Source of the DNA: Schaalia odontolytica
Lineage (GTDB): Bacteria; Actinomycetota; Actinomycetes; Actinomycetales; Actinomycetaceae
Length of the DNA stretch: 32,000 nt
Reading direction: 5' to 3'
Assembly (NCBI RefSeq): GCF_005696695.1
Contig: NZ_CP040006.1
Coordinates: forward strand, 1,800,001 to 1,832,000
Shown one piece after another: positions 6,821 through 7,004 of this stretch. Within the stretch, counting starts at the first letter, position 1, and each line of letters opens with the position of its first letter. Under the pieces are notes generated by a model that worked only from the letters and a program-made list of their open reading frames with translations, was not told where the DNA came from and did not search any database. A program made the position numbers and the translations under genes.

Positions 6821-7004
6821 GTACCCACGTGTACCCAGATTTTTCGGCTCTATTTCAACGAAAAGTCGCTTTCTGGGTACGAGTGGGTACACCTTTCAAG
6901 TCCCCCCTATGAAAAAACAGTTTTATATAGGTAGTTAAGGAAGCGTACCCAAATTGCACGGAACCCAGACTTTCCCCTGCAATGAGAACGGAAAGTCTGG
7001 GTAC
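6821..7004. repeat. Phased GTACCCA / TGGGTAC 7-mer array flanking AT-rich DNA (candidate iteron-type origin or recombinase/regulator binding array)
   Basis: GTACCCA lies at 6821..6827 and 6831..6837 (10-bp phase). TGGGTAC lies at 6874..6880 and 6884..6890 (10-bp phase, opposite orientation). The two pairs are separated by a ~40% GC spacer. Further copies are GTACCCA at 6945..6951, degenerate GAACCCA at 6961..6967 and TGGGTAC at 6998..7004. A very AT-rich stretch lies at 6905..6940. Confidence 0.6.
6964..7001. repeat. Perfect dyad CCCAGACTTTCC (14 nt) GGAAAGTCTGGG
   Basis: 12-bp perfect arms at 6964..6975 and 6990..7001, extendable to ~15 bp with outer mismatches. The loop is CCTGCAATGAGAAC. 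It could be an RNA hairpin or terminator for rightward transcription, or a dyad-symmetric DNA site. Confidence 0.5.

What the first reader, a model, noticed from the sequence alone, without database searches (positions are those of the whole stretch)
6821..7004. Helically phased GTACCCA/TGGGTAC array flanking AT-rich DNA just 3' of the rep genes: candidate iteron-type origin
Seven copies of one 7-mer (one of them degenerate) occur within 184 bp and, as far as I can see, nowhere else in this arrangement.

Two head-to-tail copies lie exactly 10 bp apart at 6821 and 6831. They face two copies 10 bp apart on the other strand at 6874 and 6884, across a ~40% GC spacer. A very AT-rich block follows at 6905..6940. 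Then comes a second convergent set (6945 and 6961 facing 6998).

One-helical-turn phasing, inverted sets and an intervening unwinding-prone segment together form the architecture established for iteron origins. In staphylococcal pathogenicity islands the origin lies immediately downstream of pri-rep. The SF3 helicase encoded at 3583..6273 is the obvious candidate binder.
Basis: partly seen in the sequence, partly recalled or inferred. Interest (0 to 1): 0.66.

Follow-up and report, generated by a model that had tools for sequence, protein, structure and literature searches.

The report
Likely replication origin of small island
A cluster of short repeats around an easily melted AT-rich stretch is most likely the replication start site of a 5.8-kb mobile element in the ychF gene of oral Actinomyces/Schaalia, built like the known origin regions of satellite phage P4.

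Summary
All six exact GTACCCA copies in the 32-kb window lie in 6821-7004, and this is the strongest 7-mer cluster in the window.

The array belongs to a mobile element of about 5.8 kb (window ~1261-7090). The element carries a large serine recombinase, three small ORFs and a P4-family (D5-like, SF3) primase-helicase, and it sits in the 3' end of ychF. Related genomes without the element lack the array.

Two element clades have 74-79% identical helicases and about 50-60% identical intergenic DNA. Four GTACCC hexamers are invariant across them, and each inverted pair keeps a 54-bp spacing without indels. The AT-rich spacer between the two repeat modules varies from 60 to 87 bp and holds the least stable DNA of the element. 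The bases flanking the hexamer change in nearly every copy (TGTACCCA to GCGTACCCG), which fits co-evolution with a binding protein.

Phage P4 has the same layout: primase gene, terminator, crr repeats (two direct copies facing two inverted copies), attP, int. Four other replicon lineages with a P4-family or D5-type primase-helicase, of five examined, carry arrays of their own motif next to the gene.

Best reading: an iteron-type origin or cis-replication region (about 0.65). This is a new member of a known kind. No binding or replication has been shown.

The parts
6820..6827 (+). Repeat copy 1, TGTACCCA
   Evidence: Exact match. It lies 10 bp before copy 2 in clade 1 (9 bp in L208) and 20 bp before copy 2 in clade 2.
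6830..6837 (+). Repeat copy 2, TGTACCCA; hexamer invariant
   Evidence: The hexamer GTACCC is invariant in 14 distinct sequences from both clades. It pairs with copy 4 at a fixed 54-bp distance.
6838..6873 (.). Spacer inside module A, 39% GC, containing the conserved TATTTCAAC(G/A)AAAAGTCG
   Evidence: GC content. Sequence partly conserved between clades, with no indels.
6874..6880 (-). Repeat copy 3 (TGGGTAC on the + strand)
   Evidence: Exact match. Degenerate in L015/L016 (CCGGATAC) and in clade 2.
6884..6891 (-). Repeat copy 4 (TGGGTACA on the + strand); hexamer invariant
6891..6944 (.). AT-rich block; predicted DNA unwinding element
   Evidence: 37% GC. The least stable 30-bp and 40-bp windows of the whole element both start at 6908: dG -30.8 kcal/mol against a mean of -46.3 (sd 3.4) for 30-bp windows. 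Its sequence and length vary between relatives (60-87 bp between copy 4 and copy 5) but it stays AT-rich.
6945..6951 (+). Repeat copy 5, (C)GTACCCA; hexamer invariant
6961..6967 (+). Degenerate copy GAACCCA; probably not a functional site
   Evidence: One mismatch. Not conserved. In the window it forms a 12-bp inverted repeat (6964-6975 / 6991-7002) with the copy 7 region.
6998..7005 (-). Repeat copy 7 (TGGGTACA on the + strand); hexamer invariant
   Evidence: It lies 54 bp from copy 5 in every relative.
3583..6273 (+). P4-family primase-helicase (896 aa); candidate initiator
   Evidence: Pfam D5_N, DUF5906 and Pox_D5. TIGR01613 at 161 bits against a cut-off of 108.7. PDB sequence matches to ASFV C962R and poxvirus D5/E5. 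The C-terminal model has a winged-helix-like topology at low confidence.
6288..6605 (+). Conserved 105-aa ORF between the helicase gene and the array
   Evidence: 40 invariant columns across 8 homologues. It is the fastest-evolving protein of the element (47-50% identity between clades). Weak, sub-threshold D5_N similarity.
6646..6680 (+). G-rich hairpin after the operon (terminator-like, no U tract)
   Evidence: Read from the sequence. Kept in clade 2 through compensating changes. Analogous hairpins precede the arrays in Streptomyces plasmids, and the annotated terminator t-alpha precedes crr in P4.
6691..6735 (.). Nearly invariant non-coding block ending in the palindrome GGTTGAATTTTCAACC; function unknown
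   Evidence: Invariant runs CCCAGAGGC, CAAGCG and CCCCC; alignment.
7066..7090 (.). Right end of the element: attR (P arm plus the 12-bp core GCGGAACTCCAC at 7079-7090)
   Evidence: Homology to the empty-site genome L024 stops at 7079. Junction alignments. Contigs L116 and L111 end exactly at ...GCGGAACTCCAC.
1261..1284 (.). Left end of the element (P' arm, CCCGATTACCGCACAGAAAAACAT)
   Evidence: Junction alignment. Contig L116 starts with ACCCGATTACC.
1306..2682 (+). Large serine recombinase (integrase)
   Evidence: Pfam Resolvase plus Recombinase; phrog_95 integrase.
2684..3205 (+). 173-aa ORF with a weak zinc-ribbon signal and a mosaic middle part
3368..3586 (+). 72-aa basic helical ORF overlapping the helicase start codon; alternative candidate binder
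   Evidence: Called as a gene in all related loci. 88% identical between clades. An annotated HTH gene sits upstream of the primase genes in the S. anulatus, S. decoyicus and Thermaerobacter plasmids, directly before the primase gene in Thermaerobacter.

Best explanation
The array is the origin of replication, or a P4-crr-like cis-replication region, of a 5.8-kb integrative element.

Proposed mechanism (inferred, not shown):
1. The serine recombinase excises the element, which places the array 60-270 bp upstream of attP and of the int operon.
2. An element-encoded protein binds the TGTACCCA sites. The most likely candidate is the P4-family primase-helicase acting through its C-terminal winged-helix-like (Pox_D5) region.
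3. The sites are arranged as inverted pairs with a rigid 54-bp geometry, in two modules on either side of an AT-rich block.
4. Bound protein on both sides melts the AT-rich block. The SF3 helicase loads, probably as two opposed hexamers, and its primase domain starts synthesis.

What is shown: the repeats exist, they belong to the element, they are under selection, they flank the least stable DNA of the element, and other replicons with this type of protein carry similar arrays.

What is inferred: which protein binds, that the DNA melts there, and that the element replicates at all.
For: 1. **Non-random cluster.**
2. **Element DNA.** Empty sites in L024 and L025 lack the array. Homology to the window ends at 7079, inside the ychF 3' end. 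The canonical attL keeps the old ychF tail. Contigs L116 and L111 start and end exactly at the crossover.
3. **Selection on the motif.** The hexamers of copies 2, 4, 5 and 7 are invariant at 24 of 24 columns, against 32% of the other columns in 6806-7019. They are the only invariant runs of 5 or more bases between 6720 and 7090.
4. **Rigid modules, flexible spacer.** The modules have no indels between clades and a fixed 54-bp pair distance, while the AT-rich spacer varies from 60 to 87 bp.
5. **Concerted change of flanking bases.** Positions -1 and +7 change in nearly every copy between clades (TGTACCCA to GCGTACCCG). One copy in L022/L023 keeps TGTACCCA.
6. **Lowest duplex stability.** The least stable window of the element starts at 6908.
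7. **Initiator type.** P4-family primase-helicase with a Pox_D5 C-terminal region whose model is winged-helix-like.
8. **P4 has the same order.** The GenBank annotation of P4 gives alpha gene, terminator, crr, attP, int. Each crr unit reads TGTTCACAcTGTTCACC, about 35 AT-rich nt, then two inverted copies. The distance from the second direct copy to the first inverted copy is 43 bp, the same as in the window (6831 to 6874).
9. **Own motif in the same place in other lineages.**
   - Two related Streptomyces plasmids: CTGTTCCGG x3, about 55 bp, CCGGAACAG x3, right after a hairpin that follows the stop codon.
   - A B. paralicheniformis plasmid: GGGTTACTGA x6.
   - A Tritonibacter plasmid: CGGCTTGA x4, with further copies of the motif in the opposite orientation read from the printed sequence, not scanned.
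   - A giant-virus MAG: TGTACCCA x8 directly after a D5_N/DUF5906 helicase gene.
   - A Thermaerobacter plasmid: GGTTCACA 3+3, but upstream of the HTH-primase operon.
10. **Matches the published SaPI origin.** That origin has 6-12 iterons downstream of rep, an AT-rich centre, at least two iterons on each side in opposite directions, and a Rep C-terminal winged helix (PMC9371898).
Against: - No experimental or read-depth evidence that the element replicates. No excised circle (attP junction) was found in the fetched contigs or in IMG/VR.
- The conservation evidence rests on only two clades, so there are few independent lineages.
- The helicase C-terminal model has low confidence (pLDDT 58) and no structural match is significant. 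The helicase shows no hypervariable segment that tracks the motif change.
- The array is separated from the helicase gene by another ORF and by a conserved block of unknown function, which could itself be the initiation site.
- P4 needs two separate sites (ori and crr); here there is only one cluster.
- One of five other replicon lineages examined (S. decoyicus) showed no obvious array. A 34%-identical relative (L115) also showed none after the gene.
Confidence: 0.65

Rival explanations
1. Operator array. The repeats are binding sites for an element regulator, for example the 72-aa or 173-aa protein, or helicase dimers acting as an autorepressor. In the excised circle they would control the int-helicase operon just downstream of attP, or they would serve copy-number control (handcuffing) rather than initiation.
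For: - In the circular form the array lies 60-270 bp upstream of attP, and the int start codon is only 45 bp beyond the crossover.
- An HTH gene lies upstream of the primase genes in three plasmids. In the Thermaerobacter plasmid the array sits upstream of the HTH-primase operon.
- Iteron plasmids are known to combine initiation and autoregulation at related repeats (established knowledge).
Against: - No sigma-70-like promoter was found in 6200-7200. A TATAAT present in clade 2 is absent in clade 1.
- A 54-bp separation of half-sites and a variable AT-rich centre are unusual for a simple operator.
- In most of the other replicons the arrays lie downstream of the gene, after a terminator-like hairpin.
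- This rival does not exclude the origin model.
Confidence: 0.15
2. Packaging signal. The array mimics the cos/pac recognition repeats of a helper phage, so that the gene-poor element is packaged as a satellite.
For: - The element has no transfer or packaging genes.
- Arrays of the same hexamer in some IMG/VR phage contigs lie just upstream of terminase and portal genes (L127 and the L134 group).
- The element occurs once in IMG/VR.
Against: - No DNA similarity to any of 50,697 phage records.
- Control scans with scrambled 8-mers find arrays at similar rates, so sharing the motif with those phages is probably coincidence.
- 5.8 kb is far below one capsid's capacity.
- The association across lineages is with primase-helicase genes, not with terminases.
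Confidence: 0.07
3. Nucleic-acid structure. The inverted repeats act as hairpins or a cruciform in single-stranded DNA or RNA, for example a primase entry site, a small RNA or a terminator, and not as protein-recognition sequences.
For: - Modules A and B fold well as single strands in the window (z -4.4 to -6.0).
- RNAalifold keeps the outer stems and a 5-bp inner stem in module B, with some double changes.
Against: - Outside the repeats the stems are not conserved. The 12-bp stem of the window is absent in clade 2, and L022 module B folds no better than shuffles (z -0.55).
- The flanking-base change is concerted across nearly all copies, including those that would never pair with each other.
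- No Rfam family matched (only one chance-level hit).
- Hairpin extrusion is compatible with an origin.
Confidence: 0.06
4. Recombination accessory sites. The repeats are extra binding sites for the serine recombinase or its directionality factor, like the res subsites of resolvases.
For: The array is within 62 bp of the attP P arm. The res sites of small serine resolvases have three inverted-repeat subsites (established knowledge).
Against: - A complete 48-bp quasi-palindromic attP can be reconstructed without the array, and it shares no GTACCC motif with it.
- Large serine recombinases act on minimal sites of under 50 bp without accessory DNA (PMC1470463, abstract seen).
- The recombinase is 92% identical between clades, yet the repeat flanks changed.
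Confidence: 0.03

Closest known systems
Satellite phage P4 cis-replication region (crr) and ori, bound by the alpha primase-helicase
   Same: - The initiator is of the same family (TIGR01613).
- The order along the element is the same: primase-helicase gene, terminator, repeats, attP, integrase gene.
- The repeat grammar is the same: two 8-mers 9-10 bp apart, an AT-rich spacer of about 35 nt, then two inverted 8-mers. The second direct copy and the first inverted copy are 43 bp apart in both.
- The motifs match at 5 of 8 positions (TGTTCACC against TGTACCCA).
- That alpha binds the type 1 repeats is from my own knowledge of the P4 literature; it was not checked here.
   Different: - P4 has two separate sites 4.5 kb apart (ori and crr). 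This element has a single 184-bp cluster.
- P4 uses a tyrosine integrase with arm sites; this element uses a large serine recombinase.
- This element has no sid, psu, delta or cos functions.
- The host is an actinobacterium with about 68% GC.
- A second module and a central AT-rich block give it a SaPI-like bipartite look.
SaPI replication origins (Staphylococcus aureus pathogenicity islands)
   Same: Short iterons lie downstream of the replication genes, around a central AT-rich region, with at least two iterons on each side in opposite directions. The initiator is a self-loading helicase with a C-terminal winged helix (PMC9371898). The array here has 4 + 2 copies around the least stable DNA of the element.
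   Different: - SaPI Rep is an AAA+ helicase of a different clade. Here the helicase is an SF3 D5/P4-type fused to a primase.
- The array is not immediately after the helicase gene.
- The integrase is a serine recombinase.
- No Stl-type repressor, terS or capsid-morphogenesis genes are present.
Repeat arrays next to P4-family primase genes in small actinobacterial and other plasmids (S. anulatus NZ_CP109526, pSM17B, B. paralicheniformis NZ_CP154904, Tritonibacter NZ_CP110388)
   Same: A hairpin after the stop codon is followed by two opposed sets of a 7-10-bp repeat spaced about one helical turn apart, with each lineage using its own motif.
   Different: These arrays are not annotated in the records, and I do not know of experiments on them. 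They have 3+3 or more copies and no clear second module. The replicons are free plasmids, not integrated elements.
Origins of eukaryotic viruses with SF3 helicases (SV40 large T, papillomavirus E1)
   Same: Short recognition sequences arranged as inverted pairs next to AT-rich DNA load two opposed hexamers of an SF3 helicase through a separate origin-binding domain. This is established knowledge and was not tested here.
   Different: The origin-binding domains are unrelated. The site spacing is much shorter than the 54 bp seen here. The resemblance is in mechanism only.

Membership tests
Iteron-type replication origin (general) | Cluster of several copies of one short motif in non-coding DNA | tested here: met
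   Six exact copies in 184 bp and none elsewhere in 32 kb. It is the top 7-mer cluster of the window and exceeds all 100 simulations.
Iteron-type replication origin (general) | Adjacent AT-rich DNA unwinding element | tested here: met
   The least stable 30-bp and 40-bp windows of the element start at 6908, between the two repeat modules. The block stays AT-rich in all relatives although its sequence differs.
Iteron-type replication origin (general) | Cognate initiator encoded in cis that binds the repeats | not testable with these tools
   A P4-family primase-helicase is encoded 548 bp upstream. Binding cannot be tested by computation.
Iteron-type replication origin (general) | Supports autonomous replication | not testable with these tools
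   No read-depth data were available and no circular contig was found.
P4-type ori/crr | Replicon encodes an alpha-type primase-helicase (TIGR01613) | tested here: met
   161 bits against a cut-off of 108.7.
P4-type ori/crr | 8-bp repeats in both orientations: direct pair 9-10 bp apart facing an inverted pair across an AT-rich spacer | tested here: met
   Window: 6820/6830 facing 6874/6884. P4: 4314/4323 facing 4366/4384.
P4-type ori/crr | Position between the terminator of the primase gene and attP/int | tested here: met
   Reconstructed circular order: helicase, ORF105, hairpin, array, attP, int. P4 annotation.
P4-type ori/crr | Two separate repeat-bearing sites (ori and crr), both needed | tested here: not met
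   All copies are in one 184-bp cluster, and one-mismatch copies elsewhere occur at chance level.
P4-type ori/crr | Repeat sequence TGTTCACC | tested here: not met
   The motif is TGTACCCA or GCGTACCCG, matching TGTTCACC at 5 of 8 positions.
SaPI-type ori | Iterons immediately downstream of the rep ORF | tested here: inconclusive
   The array is downstream and on the same strand, but a 105-aa ORF and 216 bp of non-coding DNA intervene.
SaPI-type ori | AT-rich centre with at least two iterons on each side pointing in opposite directions | tested here: met
   Four copies (two forward, two reverse) on the left and two (one forward, one reverse) on the right of 6891-6944.
SaPI-type ori | Rep helicase of the SaPI type with a C-terminal winged helix | tested here: not met
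   The helicase is D5/P4-type SF3. The winged helix is only suggested by a low-confidence model.
Large-serine-recombinase attP site | About 50-bp imperfect palindrome centred on the crossover shared with attB | tested here: not met
   attP reconstructs from 7066-7090 plus 1261-1284 and does not include the array.
Known structured RNA (Rfam) | Match to a curated covariance model | tested here: not met
   Only a chance-level hit to mir-963 (23.8 bits against a gathering score of 90).

The most novel reading that the evidence does not exclude
The 5.8-kb unit (serine integrase, three small ORFs, P4-type primase-helicase, one bipartite iteron site) may be an undescribed family of minimal replicative islands in oral Actinomycetaceae. 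It could be an integrative mini-plasmid or a gene-poor phage satellite. On this reading, its origin loads a D5-type SF3 helicase through rigid 54-bp inverted site pairs. Its ychF attachment site would accrete cargo in tandem, including a 2.4-kb erm(X) macrolide-resistance unit and restriction-modification modules.
Probability: 0.3. Interest if true: 0.6.

Novelty: new member of a known kind. Interest (0 to 1): 0.42.

Why it matters
If the array is the origin, it defines the cis element needed for replication of a very small mobile element. The element is common in human oral Actinomyces/Schaalia: its exact helicase protein is indexed in 152 collection blocks.

In the window and in most related contigs, a 2.4-kb erm(X) macrolide-resistance unit sits exactly at the element's left attachment junction. 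Knowing how the element replicates after excision therefore bears on whether and how erm(X) and the defence cargo at this hotspot are amplified and spread.

The repeat, AT-rich block and helicase also form a compact candidate replicon for building vectors for Actinomyces/Schaalia.

Finally, several unrelated replicons show the same pairing of a P4/D5-type primase-helicase with an adjacent inverted repeat array. This suggests a simple rule for finding origins next to this widespread protein family.

Tried and rejected
- **Host regulatory site downstream of ychF.** Rejected. Genomes with an empty site lack the array, and homology ends inside ychF.
- **The array as attP or arm sites.** Rejected. 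The integrase is a serine recombinase, and a separate 48-bp attP was reconstructed.
- **Rfam scan of 6550-7120.** Nothing meaningful.
- **Promoter and terminator scan of 6200-7200.** No sites.
- **DNA similarity.** No match to 50,697 phage records or 72,556 plasmid records.
- **Distant helicase relative P0041 (34% identity).** One metagenome contig, L115, with no array after the gene. Uninformative.
- **Relatives of the serine recombinase (55-62% identity).** They sit in other kinds of element, such as a Kribbella AICE-like island and a Nocardioides island. Uninformative for the array.
- **IMG/VR scan for TGTACCCANNTGTACCCA.** 32 hits, 14 of them inside arrays. Two scrambled-motif controls gave 10 of 26 and 4 of 20 in arrays. 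The recurrence of this particular motif in phages is therefore not special. Only the giant-virus contig L150 is noteworthy, because its array directly follows a D5-type helicase gene.
- **Search for an excised circle.** The 5.9-6.1-kb contigs are integrated forms cut at or near the junctions. The attP junction is absent from IMG/VR.
- **Structure of the helicase C-terminus.** The model has low confidence (pLDDT 58). The best Foldseek hits are all winged helices, but none is significant. There was no PDB sequence match for the fragment.
- **Hypervariable helicase segment tracking the motif change.** None clear; the most variable bins are aa 1-80 and 400-480.
- **Literature.** No description of this element was found. 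A search for the P4 repeat sequence was uninformative.
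Full report
**1. The observation**

The 7-mer GTACCCA occurs six times in the 32-kb window. All six copies lie between 6821 and 7004: 6821 and 6831 on the + strand, 6874 and 6884 on the - strand, 6945 on the + strand and 6998 on the - strand. Dinucleotide-preserving shuffles give a mean of 1.4 copies and never six.

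Allowing one mismatch adds GAACCCA at 6961. One-mismatch copies elsewhere in the window occur at chance frequency.

I also scored every 7-mer for its densest 184-bp cluster, so that the motif was not fixed in advance. This cluster is the best in the window, with 6 copies. One hundred first-order Markov simulations reached only 3-5.

The unit extends to about TGTACCCA(G). The spacer 6838-6873 is 39% GC and 6905-6940 is 31% GC, against 65% for the whole element.

**2. What surrounds it**

The window has about 68% GC. On the + strand it encodes, in order:
- a large serine recombinase (1306-2682; Pfam Resolvase plus Recombinase);
- a 173-aa ORF;
- a 72-aa ORF (3368-3586);
- an 896-aa primase-helicase (3583-6273). 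It matches Pfam D5_N, DUF5906 and Pox_D5, and TIGR01613 'phage/plasmid primase, P4 family' at 161 bits against a cut-off of 108.7;
- a conserved 105-aa ORF (6288-6605).

By sequence, the closest solved structures to the helicase are ASFV C962R and poxvirus D5/E5. The gene ychF lies on the - strand at 7061-8149.

The array is therefore 548 bp past the helicase stop codon and 216 bp past the 105-aa ORF. It is not 'just 3' of the rep genes' in the strict sense.

**3. The array is element DNA, and the element ends are defined**

The exact helicase and ychF proteins occur together on many oral metagenome contigs and in two isolate assemblies.

A scan anchored on ychF, covering one genome per species, found two close relatives that have ychF but none of the element genes. 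These are Actinomyces sp. ICM47 (98% ychF identity) and Actinomyces sp. ph3 (93%). Homology between ICM47 and the window stops at window position 7079, inside the last codons of ychF. No GTACCC cluster lies near ychF in either genome.

The junction alignments show the following:
- The element replaces the ychF tail (VEFRFNV* or VEFRTGLTSGGKK* in empty sites) with its own (VEFRFSKTS*).
- The canonical left junction, seen in L015 and L016, keeps the old tail next to the core GCGGAACTCCAC.
- The element starts at CCCGATTACC (window 1261), 45 bp before the recombinase start codon.

Two metagenome contigs, L116 (5,862 bp) and L111 (6,564 bp), begin with AC and the first bases of the element's left end (ACCCGATTACC in L116, ACCGGGTTACGG in L111). 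Both end with ...GCGGAACTCCAC, which are exactly the two junctions.

Joining the two ends gives a 48-bp quasi-palindromic attP (ATGTTTTACTAAAGCGGAACTCCAC/CCGATTACCGCACAGAAAAACAT). This is the kind of minimal site that large serine recombinases use, and it does not contain the repeat motif.

That criterion is not met. The array is also not the recombination site.

**4. Conservation**

The element occurs in two clades:
- **Clade 1:** the window, L015/L016, L019, L021, L110, L116 and L208, with helicases 88-100% identical to the window's.
- **Clade 2:** L022/L023, L104/L105, L107-L109 and L111, with helicases 74-79% identical. Recombinase identity is 92%, the 72-aa ORF 88% and the 105-aa ORF only 47-50%.

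I aligned the 590 nt that follow the 105-aa ORF in 14 distinct sequences. The results:
- The hexamers of copies 2, 4, 5 and 7 are invariant at 24 of 24 columns.
- Only 32% of the other columns in 6806-7019 are invariant (Fisher p = 3e-11). This figure is descriptive only, because the sequences form just two clades.
- These four hexamers are the only invariant runs of five or more bases between 6720 and 7090.

Individual copies behave as follows:
- Copy 1 lies 10 bp before copy 2 in clade 1 (9 bp in L208) and 20 bp before it in clade 2.
- Copy 3 is degenerate in L015/L016 and in clade 2.
- The 'seventh' copy at 6961 is not conserved.

The geometry is the most telling feature:
- Each inverted pair is 54 bp apart, start to start (6821/6875, 6831/6885, 6945/6999).
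- The pattern GTACCC-N48-GGGTAC occurs two or three times in each of the 31 element-bearing loci. It occurs nowhere in the 89 other loci fetched by then.
- Both modules align between clades without a single indel (80 and 71 columns).
- By contrast, the AT-rich stretch between copy 4 and copy 5 measures 60, 66, 69, 70, 86 and 87 bp in different relatives, with unrelated sequence.

Finally, the bases flanking the hexamer differ between clades in nearly every copy. Clade 1 has TGTACCCA and clade 2 has GCGTACCCG; one copy in L022/L023 keeps TGTACCCA. The change also affects copies that could never pair with each other. This is the pattern expected when a binding protein and its sites co-evolve. 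Stem covariation alone would not produce it.

**5. The AT-rich block**

I computed nearest-neighbour duplex stability along the window. The least stable 30-bp and 40-bp windows of the whole element start at 6908. The 30-bp value is -30.8 kcal/mol against a mean of -46.3 (sd 3.4). This is also the least stable 30-bp window of the entire 32 kb.

**6. Comparison with replicons that have the same kind of protein**

*Phage P4.* The GenBank record of satellite phage P4 annotates this order along the alpha strand:
1. the alpha primase-helicase gene;
2. its terminator;
3. crr ('cis required region for replication'), made of two 120-bp units that each hold five 'ori type 1 repeats';
4. the attP core;
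5. int.

Each crr unit reads TGTTCACAcTGTTCACC, then about 35 AT-rich nucleotides, then two inverted copies. The window reads TGTACCCAcgTGTACCCA, then 36 nt at 39% GC, then two inverted copies. In both, the second direct copy and the first inverted copy are 43 bp apart. In the excised circle the order would also match P4: helicase, ORF, hairpin, array, attP, int. The two motifs agree at 5 of 8 positions.

*Other replicons.* I examined five further replicon lineages (seven loci) whose primase-helicase matches this one. In four of them the strongest k-mer cluster of the locus lies in the intergenic DNA beside that gene, each with its own motif:
- Two related Streptomyces plasmids: a hairpin after the stop codon, then CTGTTCCGG x3, about 55 bp, then CCGGAACAG x3.
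- A Bacillus paralicheniformis plasmid: GGGTTACTGA x6.
- A Tritonibacter plasmid: CGGCTTGA x4. Further copies of the motif in the opposite orientation were read from the printed sequence and were not scanned.
- A Thermaerobacter plasmid: GGTTCACA 3+3, but upstream of the HTH-primase operon.
- The fifth, an S. decoyicus plasmid, had no obvious array.

*A giant-virus contig.* A giant-virus MAG contig (L150) has eight TGTACCCA copies directly after a D5_N/DUF5906 helicase gene.

*SaPI origins.* The published description of SaPI origins has the same logic (PMC9371898):
- six to twelve iterons downstream of rep;
- an AT-rich centre;
- at least two iterons on each side in opposite directions;
- a Rep C-terminal winged helix that binds them.

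**7. Who binds?**

The C-terminal region of the helicase (aa 771-824) matches Pfam Pox_D5 above its threshold. An AlphaFold model of aa 740-896 has low confidence (mean pLDDT 58). Its best-predicted part has a strand-helix-helix-strand-strand topology. The best Foldseek matches are winged-helix domains (Rok, MCM8 WH, FOXN1, Cdt1, the Orc1/Cdc6 WH) and the ASFV primase-helicase, but none is significant.

The 72-aa basic protein is an alternative. An HTH gene sits upstream of the primase genes in three of the plasmids, directly before the primase gene in Thermaerobacter. The 173-aa and 105-aa proteins cannot be excluded either. The variable middle part of the 173-aa protein does not follow the motif type (L021), which argues against that part setting specificity.

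**8. Rivals**

- **Operator for the int operon in the circular form.** This is possible and compatible with an origin. However, no promoter was found, and the geometry and the downstream position in most other replicons fit an origin better.
- **Packaging-site mimic.** I considered this because some IMG/VR phage contigs carry GTACCC arrays next to terminase genes. Scrambled-motif controls find arrays at similar rates, and there is no DNA similarity to any phage record.
- **Structure only (hairpin, cruciform or RNA).** The window folds well. Outside the repeats the stems are not conserved, one clade-2 module folds no better than shuffles, and Rfam has no match.
- **Accessory recombination sites.** Unlikely for a large serine recombinase whose complete attP lies elsewhere.

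**9. Verdict**

The array is real, belongs to the element, is under selection and has the anatomy and position of an iteron-type origin or cis-replication region. Its closest model is P4 crr/ori, followed by the SaPI origin. It fails strict membership of either:
- P4 has two separate sites and a different motif.
- SaPIs have a different helicase class, and their iterons lie directly after rep.

It is therefore a new member of a known kind. I put about 0.65 on the origin function.

Nothing here shows binding, melting or replication. No excised circle was found. The decisive tests are read depth and attP reads in the source samples, a replication assay with repeat mutants, and footprinting with the element proteins.

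Noticed in passing
window 1-1260 (erm(X)-like ORF 1-468 on the - strand, cut by the window start); L005/L006 5246-7679: A 2.4-kb low-GC unit carries an erm(X)-type 23S rRNA methyltransferase gene and an MmeI_C fragment. It sits exactly between an old ychF tail plus core (TCAGACGTTGAAGCGGAACTCCAC) and the left end of the element. Its right junction (...TCGAAATACCG|CCCGATTACC) resembles the att core but is not identical to it. It looks like cargo accreted in tandem at the attachment site, or the remnant of a second element.
   Followed up: partly
window 7061-7090; L024, L025, L015 junctions: Integration replaces the last codons of ychF. The tail VEFRFNV* or VEFRTGLTSGGKK* becomes VEFRFSKTS*. The element also supplies a hairpin (7014-7040) just past the new stop codon, which probably serves as the new ychF terminator.
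   Followed up: partly
window 6691-6735: A 45-nt non-coding block (CCCAGAGGC.CAAGCG.TATACCCCCCTTGGTT.AATTTT.AAC, ending in the palindrome GGTTGAATTTTCAACC) is almost invariant between the two clades, although the neighbouring DNA differs. Its function is unknown. It could be part of the origin, for example a second protein's site or a primase start site.
   Followed up: no
window 6646-6680: A G-rich hairpin after the 105-aa ORF is kept in clade 2 through compensating changes (GGGGAGGGG/CCCCTCCCC becomes GGGTGGGG/CCCCACCC). It looks like a terminator but has no U tract. Similar hairpins precede the repeat arrays in Streptomyces plasmids.
   Followed up: partly
window 6288-6605: The 105-aa ORF resembles the start of the D5_N domain of the helicase (motif GRRWYLW...RWE; Pfam E = 0.12, below threshold). 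It is the fastest-evolving protein of the element, at 47-50% identity between clades against 92% for the recombinase.
   Followed up: partly
L022 13480-14210, L104 11440-16012, L107 9330-11457, L111 5750-6553: Clade-2 elements carry extra genes between the array and ychF, including methyltransferase plus partner and BsuBI/PstI-type restriction genes. These follow a relic junction (GACGCGGAAC...) about 84 bp past the last repeat. This suggests that cargo is added at the attR side.
   Followed up: partly
L001-L010, L104, L112 left flanks: The flanks to the left of the element differ between strains (VapBC/HigB toxin-antitoxin genes, a 991-aa surface protein, an AAA_11/AAA_12 helicase). Each ends in its own copy of a ychF-like tail. 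The 3' end of ychF therefore behaves as a hotspot where islands pile up in tandem.
   Followed up: partly
L026 10105-11646: Schaalia sp. Marseille-Q2122 has a different serine recombinase gene (44% identity), apparently split over two reading frames, directly after ychF. Other recombinases seem to target the same site.
   Followed up: no
L150 3528-3928: A giant-virus MAG contig (27% GC) has eight copies of the same TGTACCCA motif in the intergenic DNA directly after its D5_N/DUF5906 primase-helicase gene. This may be coincidence, since the control scans show that arrays of arbitrary motifs are common. It may also hint at a shared site preference in this helicase family.
   Followed up: partly
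one search hit table; L021, L116, L208, L111: Very many assemblies hold the element as a separate contig of 5.9-6.6 kb that breaks at or within about 30 nt of the att junctions. This points to presence/absence polymorphism, variable flanks or excised forms within samples.
   Followed up: partly
window 2684-3205: The 173-aa ORF has conserved ends (including a CPGCG zinc-ribbon-like motif) and a middle part that is swapped between otherwise close elements. L021 carries the clade-2-like version.
   Followed up: no
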